Positions 46,661 to 51,342 of a stretch of 64,000 bases of DNA are shown piece by piece. The notes below the pieces were generated by a model. That model searched no databases. It saw only the letters and a list, made by a program, of their open reading frames with translations, and was not told where the DNA came from. Both the position numbers and the translations under genes were made by a program. Each line of letters begins with the position of its first letter. Position 1 is the stretch's first letter. The stretch covers positions 160,001-224,000 of the forward strand of contig CAWGYA010000007.1 of NCBI GenBank assembly GCA_963826715.1, written 5' to 3'. The stretch comes from Candidatus Bathyarchaeota archaeon. Its GTDB lineage: Archaea > Thermoproteota > Bathyarchaeia > Bathyarchaeales > Bathycorpusculaceae.

Positions 46661-47467
46661 GTGAGCTCGGGGACTAAAATGAAAAAACTTGTCATAGCCA
46701 TAATCCTCTCATTCCTTATTTCACTACCAGTATTCACCACCACAGCAACCGCCATAACAGGCAATCTAAACCCCGACTCAAAACCATACGTGGGCGTAAT
46801 AGTCCTCCTTGACGATCAACAACAACCGATTGGCTATTGTAGCGGATTCCTAATTTCCCCGACCATCATGGTAACTGCAGGCCATAGCTTACTCAACGCA
46901 CAATACGTAAGAGTCAGCTTTGACCAAGGGGGCACTATCTACGAAGGTACACCAGAAACTTATTCTTCATACGTTCCTACGCTTTCGGGAAACAGCGAAT
47001 TCCAAACAAGCGACATAGGGCTAATAAGATTTGAACAGCCCGTTTCAGGGATTACAGATTTTCCAGTATTACCCACCATAGGCTTTACTGAAACATTGAA
47101 CCATAAAACAGATTTAAAAGTCATCGGTTACGGAATGCAATACCAAACAACACCAAGAAACAATGGAGTAACTAATTCGTGGATGGGCCAAGTTACTCAA
47201 AACAGTGCAACAGTACAATTGTTGAATGCAAACTTTGCTGGTAGCGATAAATATCTAAAAGTAACCGCTAATAACGCCCAAGGCAAAGGAGCAGTAGCAT
47301 TCGGAGACTCAGGCGGACCCGTTATTTACACCGATATGAATGGTAAAGACATCGTGTTAGCCCTTAACGCATTTGTTTCAAGCGCTAACTGCAATGGAGT
47401 AAGCTACCATACTAGACTCGATACAGAAGAAGTGCATAAGTGGCTTGAGGAGCCCTACTTGATTTAA
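46661..47467 (+). CDS. Secreted S1 (chymotrypsin-fold) serine protease
   Basis: Signal peptide from MKKLVIA; triad motifs TAGH, DIGL, GDSGGP. Confidence 0.9.
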   Translation: MSSGTKMKKLVIAIILSFLISLPVFTTTATAITGNLNPDSKPYVGVIVLLDDQQQPIGYCSGFLISPTIMVTAGHSLLNAQYVRVSFDQGGTIYEGTPETYSSYVPTLSGNSEFQTSDIGLIRFEQPVSGITDFPVLPTIGFTETLNHKTDLKVIGYGMQYQTTPRNNGVTNSWMGQVTQNSATVQLLNANFAGSDKYLKVTANNAQGKGAVAFGDSGGPVIYTDMNGKDIVLALNAFVSSANCNGVSYHTRLDTEEVHKWLEEPYLI

Positions 47468-47503
47468 ATCTGCTAATTCAGAACAGCGAAAGAGGTGAAA
47501 AAT

Positions 47504-47560
47504 ATGAATACAAAAAGAGCAATCAAAAAAGCAAAACCAATAACCTTCGGCGGTTGGTAA
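47504..47560 (+). CDS. Putative 18-aa precursor peptide MNTKRAIKKAKPITFGGW
   Basis: SD GAGGTG at 47492-47497, ATG 47504, TAA 47558-47560, then an AGGG/CCCT hairpin and T-rich tract; directly upstream of the prenyltransferase. Confidence 0.6.
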   Translation: MNTKRAIKKAKPITFGGW

Positions 47561-47633
47561 ACAATCATCTAAGGGTTAAATCCCTCACTTTATTTCCTAA
47601 AATTACAAATACAAAGACGATTCAATATCAATT

Positions 47634-48632
47634 ATGCAATCAAACTCTCTCACGGCCTTGGCTATAGAAATCATTGATAGGCATGGTAGTTTCGCGCTCA
47701 ATGAAGCTTCAAAATATATTTTGGAGAACAATGGTTGTGAAGGACTTATTTCTAAAGCATTAAAATATTATGCAAAGATGATTTTTCCGAGAGTTTTGCC
47801 TATCTTTCCAGCATTAATTGAATTATCCTGCGGATCGGTGGGTGGCAAACCCAATGAAACAAACCAAATAGCAACTGCAATGCTTCTAATTACCGCTTCG
47901 GGCGACATCCATGATGATATTATAGATAGGTCCACTCACAAGTTCCAAAGAAAAACTCTCTTTGGTAAGTACGGAAAAGACATTACTCTTCTCGCCGGAG
48001 ATGCCTTATTAATGCAGGGAATGGAATTACTCCAAAACAGCCTAGAACTTTTCCAACCTAAACAAAGAAACCAAATCTCCAAATTGATGACAAAAGCCAT
48101 GTATGAAATAACCGAAGCAGAAGCCATTGAAACTCAATTGTGGAAAAAAATTAACGTAAGACCAAAAGAATACTTTGAAGTAATAAATCATAAAGCAACA
48201 GTCGCGGAACTACACTGTAAGATTGGCGGAATAATCGGAGATGCGGACGAAGTTGCTTTAGAATGCATTTCTCGTTACGGTAGAACGATTGGTTTGTTAT
48301 CAACGATGAAAGATGAATTCTTGGATCTTGAGAATTTTGATGAATTTACAGATCGTGTGATCCACGAAATGCCGCCATACCCTGTTATTTGTGCTTTTCA
48401 AAATGAAGACATTAAAAATAAATTTATTCCAGTTATGAACCGTGATAAATTGTCAAAGAATGACGTAGCCTCAATTGCACAGGCGGTTTTAACCTCTGTT
48501 GAAGTGAAAACGCTAAAAGTCAAGCTGAGACAGATGGCTGAAAAAGAACTGTTGTATAATTATCTCTTGAAAGATAGCAAAATGGGAAAAGAGGCGGCAA
48601 TTATACTTGAGGCACTAGCTATTGAATTATAG
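47634..48632 (+). CDS. Degenerate trans-isoprenyl diphosphate synthase homologue (ComQ-like candidate prenyltransferase)
   Basis: FARM DIHDDIID, LLAGDALL and HKAT are present. The second motif is DEFLD, and the GKRxRP and RRG motifs are absent. Confidence 0.8.
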   Translation: MQSNSLTALAIEIIDRHGSFALNEASKYILENNGCEGLISKALKYYAKMIFPRVLPIFPALIELSCGSVGGKPNETNQIATAMLLITASGDIHDDIIDRSTHKFQRKTLFGKYGKDITLLAGDALLMQGMELLQNSLELFQPKQRNQISKLMTKAMYEITEAEAIETQLWKKINVRPKEYFEVINHKATVAELHCKIGGIIGDADEVALECISRYGRTIGLLSTMKDEFLDLENFDEFTDRVIHEMPPYPVICAFQNEDIKNKFIPVMNRDKLSKNDVASIAQAVLTSVEVKTLKVKLRQMAEKELLYNYLLKDSKMGKEAAIILEALAIEL

Positions 48633-48855
48633 CTAATTAAAAAAGTGCTTACCAACCGCCAAAAGTTCGAGTTAGTTTTTTGTTTTTCAAAGCTACTCCT
48701 TCCTCATTTGTAGTTTTGTAGTACAATAATACTTAAAAAGTTAGCGGTTGTAGGACACATCTACACTTCAATTTCAATCTAACCCCATAATACTGTTTAG
48801 TAATTCTGAATCCTTAATAATTCCCACGTTATAGGATGATTTAATGCGATAACGA

Positions 48856-50187
48856 ATGTCAAACAACGTACCCCTAAAGTCATCAAGGTTCAGCCTAACA
48901 AATGCTTCAGTCAGCAGCTTTTTGTTAGTGAACGCTTTCGTATGGTACCTTTGCGCGTTTAAATTTTTGCAAGATACAATTAACCTAAAAGGAATCTCGA
49001 GTGATTTATCACTGTTAGTAATAGGTGTAAACTTTTTAGCCTTTATTTTCTTTGGTTTTCTCACAACATGGCTTATTAACCGATTTAGTGACAGAAAAAA
49101 ATGGCTAAAATATTGGCTGATTGCAGGTCTTTTTGTCTCTGCAATATTTTTCTTCCTAAACTCAGCTGATTTTATAACTTTAACATTATTAGGCTGCACA
49201 ATAGGTGCATATTTTGGATTAGGAATGCCTGTGGTAGCCGGCTATTTTACTGCATGTACCGAACCAAAAAACAGAGCAAAATTTGGAGGCGCAGTAATTC
49301 TTTTATTAGTAGTATCTGTTCCAACTTTGACCATCATAGGAGCTTCAGAAACCTATCTAACTCCACTTGTCTTAGGTTTATGGTTAGTGATCGGTTTGGG
49401 ACTTTTATCGTTCAAAGCTCCCGAAAGTAAGGCTGAGCCAAAGAATCGGGCATCTTTTCGTTCTATCTTCTCAAATAGGTCTTTCTTGCTTTATATTTTG
49501 CCCTGGTTAATGTTCTCGCTAATAAACGACTTAGCCTCACAAGTAATCTCAAATTCCTTTAGTGGTTTTCCCTCATTCTTTTCACAAGGTTATGTGGTTT
49601 TCACAAATGTCCTAGCAGGAATTTGTGCACTCGCTTTCGGCTTTTTAGCAGACAAAAAAGGCCGAAAACGATTGGCTTTGGTAGGTTTTGCTCTCTTAGG
49701 AACGGCATACGCCGCCTTAGGTCTTTTTAACGGAAACTACGCTGTCGCATGGTTTTATGCAATCACCGATGGTGTCGCTTGGGGAGCATTCACCATGCTA
49801 TTCATAACGACACTATGGGGCGATATTTCTCAAGGCAAGAACGGTGAAAAATACTACCTTTTAGGAATTTTACCTTATCTTTTTTCAGTCTTTGCAGGCG
49901 ACTCAATGGGTGCATACTTAGCCCAGAACAACCTTATTTCGGAAACAACTGTCTTTTCTTTTGCTGCCTTCTTTCTATTCGCAGCAACATTACCTTTGTT
50001 TTATGCTCCCGAAACATTACCTGAGAAAGTAATCAAAGATTTGGACATTATGAGTTACGTGGAGAAAGCAAAGAAGAAAGCAGATGAAGGCACCAAAAAA
50101 ACCCGCAAAGAAGATAACTCCAATACCTCAATAGAAGATGACAAAAGCTACGAAGAAGCTAGAAAATTAGCAGAAAAATACTATTAA
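48856..50187 (+). CDS. MFS transporter
   Basis: About 12 TM helices; GFLADKKGRKR motif A; APETLP. Confidence 0.88.
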   Translation: MSNNVPLKSSRFSLTNASVSSFLLVNAFVWYLCAFKFLQDTINLKGISSDLSLLVIGVNFLAFIFFGFLTTWLINRFSDRKKWLKYWLIAGLFVSAIFFFLNSADFITLTLLGCTIGAYFGLGMPVVAGYFTACTEPKNRAKFGGAVILLLVVSVPTLTIIGASETYLTPLVLGLWLVIGLGLLSFKAPESKAEPKNRASFRSIFSNRSFLLYILPWLMFSLINDLASQVISNSFSGFPSFFSQGYVVFTNVLAGICALAFGFLADKKGRKRLALVGFALLGTAYAALGLFNGNYAVAWFYAITDGVAWGAFTMLFITTLWGDISQGKNGEKYYLLGILPYLFSVFAGDSMGAYLAQNNLISETTVFSFAAFFLFAATLPLFYAPETLPEKVIKDLDIMSYVEKAKKKADEGTKKTRKEDNSNTSIEDDKSYEEARKLAEKYY

Positions 50188-50211: not shown

Positions 50212-51342
50212 ATGTTCTTCCACGTGATACTCACCAGTGACTGCAACTTGCAATGCAAATACTGCTTTGGGGAGAGCCTTGATGACTTCGATGAGGCCTT
50301 CGGGGGAGACATAAAAATAGACTATGAATTACCACGAAACCTGAACTACGATCTGACGATGCTTAAGCACTTTTGTAGCCAGGATCCAGATTGTGTGCTT
50401 ACTTTCTATGGCGGTGAACCTCTGCTGCAAACAAGTAAACTGAGGGAAATAATGGACACCATCACACCTAAGCATTATATGATGCAGACTAACGGCTTGC
50501 TTCTTGACAAGCTCGAAGCTAAATACATCAATCGCTTCCACACTTTATTAGTATCAATTGATGGTGAAGAAGCCCTAACTGACCACTACCGTGGCAAAGG
50601 CACTTTCCGCAAAGTCATAGACAATCTAAAGCTGATTAGAAACAATGGTTTCAACGGTGAATTGATCGCGCGGATGACTATTATGGAGGAAACTGATATT
50701 GAAAAACAGGTCAAATGGCTCCTTCAAAATGATGAATTCAGCTTCACTTCAATTCATTGGCAGCTAAATGCTGGTTTTTGGGGAAATGATTTACCCAGGC
50801 GCAACTTTGAGCAGTGGAGCAAAAGTAGTTACATTCCTGGAGTTTACGCGCTGGTCCGTTTCTGGGTAGATTTCATGGACAAGCAAGGTAAGGTTTTGAA
50901 GTTATATCCCTTGTTGGGTATAGCAAACTCCCTTTTGCATGGAGAGAGGGATTGCCTTATGCGGTGCGGCGGAGGCTGGACAAACTATGCTATTCAAACT
51001 GATGGCTATCTAATTCCGTGTCCTACCATGTGGGGCATGAAAGACTATTATTTAGGGCACATAAAAAATACAAATCCGCTAAAACTGCGTAAAATGTTTG
51101 TTGAACAGAAACCCTGTAGCGAATGCAAAATCATAGGTATATGTGGAGGACGTTGCCTATATACTAACATAACCAAACGTTGGGCCGATCAAGACTATAC
51201 CAAAGTTTGCCAAACCGTTGAACAACTCATCGCTGCAGTGGAAGCTGAAATGCCCAAAATACGAAACCTGATACATGAGGGCAGAATTGGGCTAAGCGAT
51301 TTTGATTATGTAAAATATAACGGCTGCGAAATTATACCATAG
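50212..51342 (+). CDS. Radical SAM/SPASM enzyme (resembles the AF0577-type putative peptide-modifying family)
   Basis: CNLQCKYC, FYGGEPLL, QTNG, VSIDG; SPASM Cys set CGGG...PCP...CSEC.....CGGRC...C. Confidence 0.85.
   Translation: MFFHVILTSDCNLQCKYCFGESLDDFDEAFGGDIKIDYELPRNLNYDLTMLKHFCSQDPDCVLTFYGGEPLLQTSKLREIMDTITPKHYMMQTNGLLLDKLEAKYINRFHTLLVSIDGEEALTDHYRGKGTFRKVIDNLKLIRNNGFNGELIARMTIMEETDIEKQVKWLLQNDEFSFTSIHWQLNAGFWGNDLPRRNFEQWSKSSYIPGVYALVRFWVDFMDKQGKVLKLYPLLGIANSLLHGERDCLMRCGGGWTNYAIQTDGYLIPCPTMWGMKDYYLGHIKNTNPLKLRKMFVEQKPCSECKIIGICGGRCLYTNITKRWADQDYTKVCQTVEQLIAAVEAEMPKIRNLIHEGRIGLSDFDYVKYNGCEIIP

What the first reader, a model, noticed from the sequence alone, without database searches (positions are those of the whole stretch)
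47492..50187. Candidate archaeal ComQ/ComX-like prenylated-peptide system: tiny Trp-terminal peptide, degenerate prenyltransferase and MFS exporter
Seen: an unannotated 18-codon ORF (47504-47560, MNTKRAIKKAKPITFGGW) with a strong SD, a Lys-rich leader and a C-terminal FGGW. It is followed by a short hairpin/T-tract, an isoprenyl-diphosphate-synthase-fold gene 73 bp later, and then an MFS transporter. The enzyme keeps the first DDxxD (allylic diphosphate/Mg site) but has DEFLD at the second motif. It lacks both the N-terminal GKRxRP and the RRG after the first motif. Known: those basic motifs bind substrate diphosphates, notably IPP, in chain-elongating synthases. Bacillus ComQ is an IPPS-fold enzyme with a degenerate second motif that prenylates a Trp near the C-terminus of the ComX pheromone. 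Inference: this enzyme prenylates the Trp of the adjacent peptide, which is exported as a lipopeptide signal or RiPP. I know of no such system described in archaea.
Basis: partly seen in the sequence, partly recalled or inferred. Interest (0 to 1): 0.9.

Follow-up and report, generated by a model that had tools for sequence, protein, structure and literature searches.

The report
Archaeal mini-peptide prenyltransferase gene module
Two tiny tryptophan-ended peptide genes flank a remodelled isoprenoid-synthase-like enzyme and a membrane transporter in this soil archaeon, a module conserved across its class that probably makes an exported lipid-tagged peptide, something not yet described in archaea.

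Summary
The 18-codon ORF (47504-47560) exists. A second one ending in the same TFGGW-stop lies convergent, 16 nt after the enzyme's stop (48649-48690, minus strand). These are the only two FGGW-stop tails in the 2.64 Mb genome.

The organism is a Bathyarchaeia archaeon. Similar basic, Trp-ended mini-ORFs lie within 350 bp of the enzyme in 69 of 77 public loci and beside none of 8 canonical synthases. Differences in their F-G-G-W-stop codons are all synonymous. The two peptides of one locus share their last four residues in 11 of 14 loci.

The enzyme keeps the first Asp-rich motif. It has lost the basic motifs that, from recalled knowledge, bind IPP. An MFS gene follows in 75 of 79 loci. The radical SAM neighbour is only loosely linked.

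A related module occurs in Methanomethylicia, there with an Rce1-like protease.

Best reading: a trans-IDS-derived peptide prenyltransferase that works like ComQ or PalQ but fails their residue hallmarks. The chemistry is untested, and four related peptides lack Trp. I found no description in print.

The parts
47492..47498 (+). Shine-Dalgarno-like GAGGTGA, 5 nt before the ATG of precursor A
   Evidence: Read. GGAGGTGA or GAGGTGA stands at the same distance before the orthologous ORFs of 4 other loci.
47504..47560 (+). Precursor peptide A, 18 aa (MNTKRAIKKAKPITFGGW). It has a Lys/Arg-rich N-terminal part, an AKP junction and a TFGGW tail. An alternative GTG start lies at 47495.
   Evidence: Orthologues lie upstream on the same strand in related loci. 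Codon differences in the F-G-G-W-stop codons are all synonymous.
47634..48632 (+). Trans-isoprenyl-diphosphate-synthase-fold enzyme, the putative peptide prenyltransferase (332 aa)
   Evidence: PF00348 at 73.6 bits. The best NCBIfam synthase model gives 93.7 bits against a cut-off of 468. AF2 pLDDT is 94.6. The Foldseek top hit is 1wy0, TM 0.84. The family alignment A1 has D94, D95, D98, K103, T108, G216 and D231 invariant.
48649..48690 (-). Precursor peptide B, 13 aa from a TTG start (MKNKKLTRTFGGW as printed). It is convergent with the enzyme, and its stop lies 16 nt after the enzyme's stop. GGAAGGAG lies at 48696-48703, 5 nt before the TTG. The frame is open up to 48726.
   Evidence: Convergent orthologues lie just downstream of the enzyme in most related loci. 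The TTG start with GGAAGG before it is kept in 4 of 5 close loci.
48856..50187 (+). MFS-type membrane protein (443 aa), the putative exporter
   Evidence: PF07690, E 1.3e-11. A homologue is present in 75 of 79 related loci, and 73 of them lie downstream on the enzyme's strand. It also accompanies a paralogous module (L004).
50212..51342 (+). Radical SAM/SPASM protein of family TIGR04084. It is a frequent neighbour, and its membership of the module is uncertain.
   Evidence: 293.7 bits against a cut-off of 225. It is adjacent in 53 of 79 loci. It is single-copy and also present in 11 relatives without an enzyme match. It is absent beside 18 modules that have at least 2.7 kb of downstream sequence.
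46661..47467 (+). Secreted trypsin-fold serine protease (268 aa), an optional neighbour
   Evidence: PF00089, E 3.6e-12. A homologue is present in 19 of 79 loci and beside the paralogous module L004. Its specificity is unknown.

Best explanation
This is a three-part module: mini-precursor peptides, a remodelled trans-isoprenyl diphosphate synthase, and an MFS membrane protein. It most likely makes an exported, Trp-prenylated short peptide.

Shown:
- The two mini-ORFs are conserved coding sequences tied to this enzyme family.
- Their last four or five residues are hypervariable between species but concordant within a genome.
- The enzyme keeps the allylic-diphosphate/Mg site (DDxxD, K103, K185).
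- It has lost the basic residues that, from recalled knowledge, bind IPP.

Inferred:
- The enzyme binds a prenyl diphosphate made by the genome's canonical synthase.
- It ionises the donor and transfers the prenyl group to the indole of the Trp at or near the peptide's C-terminus.
- The basic N-terminal part with its conserved (I/V/P)(I/V)R or AKP element acts as a leader, for recognition and later removal.
- The MFS protein exports the lipopeptide.
- The product acts outside the cell, as a species-specific signal or a membrane-active agent.
For: (1) Rarity. The genome holds only 2 FGGW-stop tails, and both flank the enzyme.

(2) Conservation. Basic, Trp-ended mini-ORFs lie within 350 bp of the enzyme in 26 of 30 loci and 69 of 77 loci. 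The background is 0.19-0.23 candidates per kb, which is about 0.2 expected per locus.

(3) Controls. The count is 0 of 8 beside canonical RRG/GKRxR synthases, 1 of 4 beside one other paralogue family and 0 of 5 beside another.

(4) Coding signature. In the last six codons of 10 ORFs there are 102 synonymous against 37 non-synonymous codon differences. All differences in the F-G-G-W-stop codons are synonymous, while the flanks are unalignable.

(5) Core co-variation. In 11 of 14 loci with both peptide types the last four residues are identical. The observed mean is 3.57 of 4. The permuted mean is 1.73, and the highest of 2000 permutations is 2.78.

(6) Enzyme residues. D94, D95, D98, K103 and D231 are invariant. 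The GKRxR positions are non-basic, RRG reads K-F, and FQ reads S-T. The genome has a separate canonical synthase scoring 212 bits.

(7) Transporter. An MFS gene is present in 75 of 79 loci. The 4 loci without it have 0-1287 bases of sequence downstream of the enzyme.

(8) Wider range. A related module occurs in Methanomethylicia. There, 8 of 9 loci carry convergent mini-ORFs with a P-(V/I)-R-x-W core. In 8 of those 9 loci a membrane protein with invariant EExxxR, FxxxH and HxxxN motifs lies directly upstream, and one of these 8 proteins hits Pfam Rce1-like at 7.4e-7.

(9) Precedent. All characterised trans-IDS-like peptide prenyltransferases act on Trp, and PalQ prefers GW or GGW C-termini (review PMC13290415, sections 2.4 and 3.4 read).
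Against: - No biochemical, transcript or peptide evidence exists. No RNA run holds the locus.
- Four related loci carry the homologous convergent basic mini-ORF without Trp. Two of them have Tyr in the tail and two have no aromatic residue there.
- The hallmark residues of known Trp prenyltransferases are missing. The Gln upstream of the second motif is T/S/V/L here, and ComQ's Asn is Asp here.
- The second motif remains D[E/D]xxD as in true synthases, so a second metal or diphosphate site is not excluded.
- The nearest sequences and folds are genuine GGPP synthases.
- MFS and radical SAM genes persist together without the enzyme in 3 relatives, so the MFS protein may have another task.
- I could not run an enzyme-peptide complex prediction.
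Confidence: 0.6

Rival explanations
1. The peptides are substrates, but the chemistry is not Trp prenylation alone. Either the enzyme modifies another site, or the adjacent radical SAM/SPASM enzyme is the main maturase. It could, for example, form an Arg/Lys-to-Trp cross-link as in streptide, with or without prenylation.
For: - The radical SAM gene scores 108.9 bits to PapB-type peptide maturases and 293.7 bits to TIGR04084.
- It lies 25 nt after the MFS gene and is adjacent in 53 of 79 loci.
- An Arg or Lys is conserved 3-7 residues before the Trp.
- Four homologous peptides lack Trp but keep the Arg.
Against: - The radical SAM gene is single-copy and present in 11 relatives without an enzyme match. 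It is also present in Sulfolobus acidocaldarius.
- 18 modules with enough downstream sequence lack it, including the window's two closest relatives.
- It is absent from the Methanomethylicia modules.
- Paralogous modules duplicate the enzyme, peptide and MFS genes but not the radical SAM gene.
Confidence: 0.15
2. The mini-ORFs are real small proteins but not substrates. They could be regulators or partners of the enzyme or transporter. The enzyme would then make a non-peptide isoprenoid that the MFS protein moves and the radical SAM enzyme modifies, for example a lipid.
For: - The enzyme's closest relatives are GGPP synthases.
- D[E/D]xxD is retained.
- The locus sits at a stable position beside LeuRS in 35 of 79 loci, as a core gene would.
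- SPASM radical SAM enzymes that modify archaeal lipids exist (PMC11186832, passages read).
- MFS and radical SAM genes occur together without the enzyme.
Against: - This does not explain the hypervariable but internally concordant peptide tails.
- It does not explain the near-constant Trp.
- It does not explain the Rce1-like protease in the Methanomethylicia version.
- It does not explain the loss of the IPP-binding residues, which rules out ordinary chain elongation.
Confidence: 0.15
3. The mini-ORFs are not genes. They are chance frames or DNA/RNA signals such as terminators.
For: They are unannotated and absent from the 15-billion protein collection, as the 21-aa and 25-aa frames. There is no expression data.
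Against: - The substitutions follow a synonymous pattern.
- SD motifs and the stop position are conserved.
- The ORFs are conserved across genomes of 23-50% G+C.
- Only two FGGW-stop tails exist in the genome.
- There is no Rfam match above chance, and the local fold is not significant.
Confidence: 0.02

Closest known systems
PalQ/PalX of Paenibacillus alvei (PMC10853753, section 2 part 1 read; review PMC13290415)
   Same: Both are trans-IDS-derived enzymes next to their precursor gene. The acceptor Trp is at the very C-terminus, and Gly before it is favoured (GW, GGW). That is exactly how the window's two peptides end. The first Asp of the second motif is kept.
   Different: PalX is a longer NHLP-type precursor whose proposed core starts at residue 73, whereas these precursors are 13-21 aa with a basic leader. 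The Gln upstream of the second motif is not conserved here. A histidine kinase neighbour is present there, while an MFS protein is present here. That system is bacterial and this one archaeal. In many relatives here 1-3 residues follow the Trp, which abolishes PalQ activity.
ComQ/ComX of Bacillus, and StheQ/StheX of Sphaerobacter (bioRxiv 10.64898/2026.08.29.745113, abstract and passages read)
   Same: Both pair an IDS-fold enzyme with an adjacent short peptide carrying Trp near the C-terminus. The cores vary between strains or species. The first motif DDxxD is kept.
   Different: ComQ-type enzymes have the pseudo-second motif NDxxx, and changing Asn to Asp removes 90-98% of activity. Here Asp is invariant. 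ComX and StheX are much longer (StheX has 69 aa). No ComP/ComA-type two-component genes lie nearby. Profile scores place this family nearer to archaeal GGPP synthase (145 bits) than to the one solved indole prenyltransferase, Ord1 (106 bits).
Canonical archaeal GGPP synthase (for example PDB 1wy0, and the genome's own gene at G000:C8:1084984-1085751)
   Same: They share the fold (TM 0.84), the first Asp-rich motif, the Lys of the KT motif, and an acidic second motif.
   Different: The GKRxR, RRG and FQ residues are lost. Identity to the genome's own synthase is 23%. This family forms a separate clade in the quick tree (99 SH-aLRT). It is always paired with mini-ORFs and an MFS gene.
Yeast a-factor pathway (recalled; PMC2134810 seen in a search listing only)
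   Same: It produces a short exported prenylated peptide pheromone whose C-terminal residues after the prenylated residue are trimmed by Rce1 or Ste24. The Methanomethylicia version of this module pairs Trp-plus-3-residue tails with an Rce1-like protein.
   Different: There, Cys is prenylated by an unrelated alpha/beta heterodimeric transferase and export uses an ABC transporter. No homology is implied.

Membership tests
trans-isoprenyl diphosphate synthase superfamily (PF00348 fold) | All-alpha synthase fold and first Asp-rich motif DDxxD | tested here: met
   PF00348 at 73.6 bits. AF2 pLDDT 94.6. Foldseek 1wy0, TM 0.84. D94, D95 and D98 are invariant in 28 sequences.
chain-elongating trans-IDS (GGPPS/FPPS) | N-terminal GKRxR(P) and the second Arg of RRG, which bind IPP (role recalled) | tested here: not met
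   The aligned positions are non-basic. RRG aligns to K103-F104, and position 104 varies in the family.
chain-elongating trans-IDS (GGPPS/FPPS) | FQxxDDxxD second motif | tested here: inconclusive
   FQ reads S-T and is variable in the family. The acidic part is kept as D[E/D]xxD with D231 invariant.
chain-elongating trans-IDS (GGPPS/FPPS) | Reaches a curated NCBIfam equivalog cut-off | tested here: not met
   The best model, IdsA, gives 93.7 bits against 468. The GGPP_syn model gives 79.9 bits against 500.
ComQ family (Trp prenyltransferase) | Pseudo-second motif beginning with Asn (NDxxx) | tested here: not met
   D231 is invariant in 28 of 28 sequences. The ComQ/StheQ motif is taken from the preprint.
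ComQ family (Trp prenyltransferase) | Adjacent gene for a short peptide with Trp near the C-terminus | tested here: met
   Two such genes flank the enzyme. They are conserved in 69 of 77 loci.
ComQ family (Trp prenyltransferase) | Neighbouring ComP/ComA-type sensor kinase and regulator | tested here: not met
   None of the six neighbours scanned is a kinase. A PadR-like regulator is present in 21 of 79 loci (Pfam-checked on one locus only, L080).
ComQ family (Trp prenyltransferase) | Groups with ComQ in a joint tree, or matches InterPro IPR033965 | not testable with these tools
   No tool gave me ComQ, PalQ, StheQ or ChrPC sequences. The tree holds only archaeal sequences.
PalQ-type C-terminal Trp prenyltransferase | Conserved Gln upstream of the second motif, paired with its first Asp | tested here: not met
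   The column aligned to the canonical Gln is T228 here and T/S/V/L/I/G in the family. The Asp is present.
PalQ-type C-terminal Trp prenyltransferase | Acceptor Trp is the last residue, with Gly preferred before it | tested here: met
   Both window peptides end GGW-stop. Over the wider family, 0 residues follow the last Trp in 29 of 94 candidates and 1-3 residues follow in 65 of 94.
Peptide prenyltransferase (any) | Transfers a prenyl group to the peptide | not testable with these tools
   This needs an enzyme assay or mass spectrometry.
TIGR04084 radical SAM/SPASM | Score over the curated cut-off | tested here: met
   293.7 bits against 225.
CPBP/Rce1-like intramembrane protease (Methanomethylicia neighbour, not in the window) | EExxxR, FxxxH and HxxxN motifs (recalled) and a Pfam PF02517 match | tested here: inconclusive
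   The motifs are invariant in 8 of 8 sequences. Only 1 of 8 hits PF02517, at 7.4e-7. There is no PDB sequence match, and the AF2 model has pLDDT 53.

The most novel reading that the evidence does not exclude
Bathyarchaeia and Methanomethylicia use species-specific, Trp-prenylated penta- to heptapeptides as secreted pheromones. This would be an archaeal counterpart of ComX and of yeast a-factor. The precursors, at 13-21 residues, would be unusually short for a RiPP. The transferase would have been recruited independently from archaeal GGPP synthase. In Methanomethylicia an Rce1-like protease would trim a 'W-a-a-X' tail after prenylation.
Probability: 0.22. Interest if true: 0.95.

Novelty: new variant of a known kind. 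Interest (0 to 1): 0.8.

Why it matters
Peptide prenylation by synthase-derived enzymes is known only from a few bacteria. Peptide signalling in archaea is almost unknown.

Bathyarchaeia are among the most abundant uncultured archaea of soils and sediments, and this module is common in them. In the window's own family 11 of 16 sampled genomes carry it.

If the chemistry holds, it would be, to my knowledge, the first archaeal prenylated RiPP. It would use unusually short precursors. It may be an independent evolution of a peptide prenyltransferase from the lipid pathway.

Databases currently name these genes 'geranylgeranyl pyrophosphate synthase'. That misleads metabolic reconstructions.

The related module occurs in Methanosuratincola. 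An isolate of that genus exists (PMC12244365, abstract seen), so the idea can be tested directly by mass spectrometry.

Tried and rejected
Hairpin and terminator after peptide A: not beyond chance.

Known RNA families over 47300-48950: only one chance-level hit, E 0.97.

Expression: the look-up of sequencing runs listed 4 DNA soil runs of one study and no RNA holder. I laid no reads.

The tree is IQ-TREE's quick search, because the careful search did not finish. It holds 72 rows. I dropped L014-L016 (truncated or broken). From L031-L109 I kept only every third locus scoring at least 330 bits.

Enzyme-peptide complex prediction: not run. Complex prediction asks for chains of 30 residues or more, and the peptides have 13-21.

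Radical SAM gene as a GDGT ring synthase: rejected, because that enzyme is a B12-binding radical SAM (abstracts). As Gms: unlikely, because Gms has an extra N-terminal six-helix domain. Its function stays open.

Trypsin-like neighbour as the leader peptidase cutting after Lys or Arg: not supported. Reading the translation, the residue six positions before the catalytic Ser is Ala rather than the Asp of trypsin (the rule is recalled).

CPBP assignment of the Methanomethylicia neighbour by structure: the AF2 model was too poor (pLDDT 53.2), so I made no fold search.

The search of protein representatives: not used, because canonical synthases would swamp the counts.

Literature: searches found no archaeal trans-IDS-like peptide prenyltransferase. 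Subscription papers are not in the library, for example the 2026 Natural Product Reports review cited in PMC13290415. Supplements were closed, so a mention there cannot be excluded.

Full report
OBSERVATION.
- An 18-codon ORF at 47504-47560 reads MNTKRAIKKAKPITFGGW-stop.
- GAGGTGA lies 5 nt before its ATG.
- A 332-aa gene starts 73 nt after the stop (47634-48632).
- An MFS gene lies at 48856-50187.

On the minus strand, 16 nt beyond the enzyme's stop, a frame ends in the same TFGGW-stop (48649-48726). Its likely start is the TTG at 48690, which is preceded by GGAAGGAG. This gives a 13-aa peptide.

In all six frames of the 2.64 Mb genome there are 275,126 stops. Eight tails end GGW-stop and only two end FGGW-stop. 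Those two are these ORFs. The 'hairpin/T-tract' is no better than chance, and no Rfam family matches.

THE MINI-ORFS ARE CODING. I compared five close loci, each with both peptides.
- Differences in the F-G-G-W-stop codons are all synonymous (TTC/TTT; GGC/GGT/GGA; TAA/TAG).
- Over the last six codons of the 10 ORFs there are 102 synonymous and 37 non-synonymous codon differences. All the non-synonymous ones fall at the fifth residue from the end.
- The flanks cannot be aligned.
- The SD motif, the unusual TTG start of the downstream peptide, and the stop position are kept.

THE ENZYME. It matches PF00348 at only 73.6 bits. It stays far below every curated synthase cut-off; the best is 93.7 bits against 468. 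The AlphaFold model is confident (pLDDT 94.6). The fold is that of GGPP synthases (1wy0, TM 0.84). The free-tryptophan farnesyltransferase Ord1 ranks 16th.

In an alignment of 28 family members, D94, D95, D98, K103, T108, G216 and D231 are invariant, and the second motif reads D[E/D]xxD. I aligned the enzyme to P. horikoshii GGPPS and to the genome's own canonical synthase (23% identity).
- The GKRxR positions are non-basic.
- RRG aligns to K-F.
- FQ aligns to S-T.
- The Lys of the KT motif is kept.

From recalled knowledge of FPPS and GGPPS structures, the lost residues bind IPP and the kept ones bind the allylic diphosphate. The genome has exactly one other PF00348 gene. It is a canonical one of 212 bits with GKKWR, RRG and FQMQDDILD.

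COMPARATIVE GENOMICS. Contig titles identify the lineage as Bathyarchaeia. Of 245 pattern matches, 227 encode a relative, and 79 loci were kept.

I searched for ORFs of 10-30 aa with at least 3 Lys/Arg in the first ten residues, at most one acidic residue, and Trp in the last four.
- Such an ORF lies within 350 bp of the enzyme in 26 of 30 loci from relatives.
- It does so in 69 of 77 loci from the public contigs. Two further loci had no whole enzyme ORF. The two sets overlap.
- The background is 0.19 per kb in the own genome and 0.23 per kb in the rest of the loci. That is about 0.2 expected per locus.
- Controls: 0 of 8 canonical synthases, 1 of 4 of a KDDIVD paralogue, and 0 of 5 of a WDDIID paralogue.

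Two layouts recur. A longer peptide lies upstream on the enzyme's strand and carries an AKP or GKP junction. A shorter one lies convergent just downstream and carries an (I/V/P)(I/V)R element. Among the candidates the last Trp is followed by 0-3 residues. Gly precedes it in 24 of 31 upstream candidates and 27 of 63 downstream candidates. These lists contain some false candidates.

Of the 8 loci without a candidate, 5 do carry a convergent basic mini-ORF. One was excluded only for its acidic residues. Four lack Trp: two end with a Tyr-containing tail and two have no aromatic residue in the tail.

CORE CO-VARIATION. Fourteen loci have both peptide types. In 11 the last four residues are identical, and in 9 the last five are, although these tails differ between species. 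The observed mean is 3.57 of 4. The permuted mean is 1.73, and the maximum of 2000 permutations is 2.78. The loci are kin, so this is descriptive rather than a strict test. In the window the two tails differ at two synonymous sites, so recent gene conversion is not the cause. A conserved N-terminal part with a hypervariable C-terminal part is the leader/core pattern of ribosomal natural products.

NEIGHBOURS (79 loci).
- MFS: 75 loci, of which 73 lie downstream on the same strand. The 4 loci without it have 0-1287 bases of downstream sequence.
- Radical SAM/SPASM TIGR04084: 53 loci.
- LeuRS: 35 loci.
- Trypsin-fold protease: 19 loci.
- PadR-like regulator: 21 loci (Pfam-checked on one locus only, L080).

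A paralogous module in a relative again has protease, peptide, enzyme and MFS genes (L004).

The radical SAM gene is single-copy and found in 49 of 61 relatives. It is present in 11 genomes without an enzyme match and in Sulfolobus acidocaldarius. It is missing beside 18 modules with at least 2.7 kb of downstream sequence. In enzyme-less genomes it sits with the MFS gene (3 loci), next to LeuRS without the MFS gene (1 locus), or with none of the reference genes (6 loci). I therefore treat it as a possible but unproven member of the module.

WIDER RANGE. I searched 301 genomes of the phylum with a profile at E <= 1e-55. It found the family in 41 genomes: 11 of 16 in the window's own family, and 15 of 24 in a family outside the class. 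One protein from that family carries the names Methanosuratincola or Methanosuratus.

There, 8 of 9 loci carry one or two convergent mini-ORFs of 13-17 aa with a Y-N-P-T-P-(V/I)-R-x-W core followed by 1-5 residues. These loci range from 23% to 51% G+C. The loci usually also hold an MFS gene.

Directly upstream in 8 of the 9 loci lies a membrane protein with invariant EExxxR, FxxxH and HxxxN motifs. One of the 8 matches Pfam 'Type II CAAX prenyl endopeptidase Rce1-like' at 7.4e-7. There is no PDB sequence match, and the model is poor. This protein is not found in the Bathyarchaeia loci or in the own genome. Five further loci from other families of the phylum had no such peptides.

MECHANISM.

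Shown:
- The unit of peptide(s), enzyme and MFS gene is conserved.
- The peptides are coding sequences.
- The allylic-diphosphate site is retained and the IPP-site residues are lost.
- The core is hypervariable between species but concordant within a genome.

Inferred:
- The enzyme ionises a prenyl diphosphate and alkylates the indole of the terminal or near-terminal Trp.
- The basic part serves as a leader.
- The MFS protein exports the product.
- A protease removes the leader and, in Methanomethylicia, the residues after Trp.

The chain length, the position on the indole and the biological role are unknown.

COMPARISON WITH KNOWN SYSTEMS. The module works like PalQ/PalX and ComQ/ComX. The window's GGW termini match PalQ's preferred motif (PMC13290415, section 3.4). 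It is not a member of either family by their hallmarks. ComQ and StheQ have NDxxx with an essential Asn, whereas Asp is invariant here. The Gln shared by ComQ, PalQ, ChrPC and Ord1 is not conserved here. The family's profile scores 145 bits to an archaeal GGPPS and 106 bits to Ord1. In a quick tree it forms its own clade apart from the canonical archaeal synthases (99 SH-aLRT). This fits an independent recruitment but does not prove it.

NOVELTY AND LIMITS. Public annotations call these proteins GGPP or heptaprenyl synthases. The Atlas clusters are 'polyprenyl synthetase' of Bathyarchaeota. The mini-ORFs are not in the protein collection. Seven literature searches and four papers read in part gave no archaeal case. 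A survey of archaeal RiPPs (PMC12144867) contains none of the words prenyl, tryptophan or Bathyarchae.

Everything here is comparative. No expression data were available. No complex prediction was possible. Supplements and subscription journals could not be checked.

Noticed in passing
L142:4040-5029 (-) and its counterparts in L143, L144, L151-L155: In Methanomethylicia a membrane protein with invariant EExxxR, FxxxH and HxxxN motifs sits directly upstream of the enzyme. One of 8 hits Pfam Rce1-like at 7.4e-7. The peptides there carry 1-5 residues after Trp, often three (a 'WaaX'-like tail).
   Followed up: partly
L122-L126 (for example G030:C1:823528-824232): A sister paralogue family has W-DDIID and K-x-F-K-P-T in place of RRG. 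It scores 165-207 bits to the enzyme profile but has no nearby mini-ORF (0 of 5). Its function is unknown.
   Followed up: no
L112-L114, L116: Another PF00348 paralogue keeps RRG but has no GKRxR match and no second Asp-rich motif by my pattern search. It is nearly identical across four genomes of the genus.
   Followed up: no
L015 / L070 (G029:C8:43094-44081); G010:C1:67067-68065; G010:C15:92940-93746: Decay of the module. The enzyme is split into two ORFs in one genome while the upstream peptide ORF is kept. In another genome an enzyme copy has 9 stops and the radical SAM gene has 4 stops.
   Followed up: no
L019 (G042:C13:75581-77633), also G300:C31: Two enzyme genes lie in tandem, with a single convergent mini-ORF after the second.
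   Followed up: no
L051, L072, L100: Three contigs filed under bacterial MAG names (Limnocylindrales, Sulfotelmatobacter, Caldiserica) carry the archaeal module. Binning errors are likely.
   Followed up: no
L080, L093, L095, L100: These loci carry homologous convergent basic mini-ORFs that keep the P-(V/I)-R element but have no Trp. The tails hold Tyr in two loci and no aromatic residue in the other two.
   Followed up: partly
window 50212-51342 and relatives: The TIGR04084 radical SAM/SPASM protein is a single-copy gene in 49 of 61 relatives and is also present in Sulfolobus acidocaldarius. I found no paper on its function.
   Followed up: partly
L110:2414-3514 (-): The genome's canonical synthase gene overlaps the end of a 366-aa ORF that looks to me like a type 2 IPP isomerase. 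This rests on recall and was not scanned.
   Followed up: no
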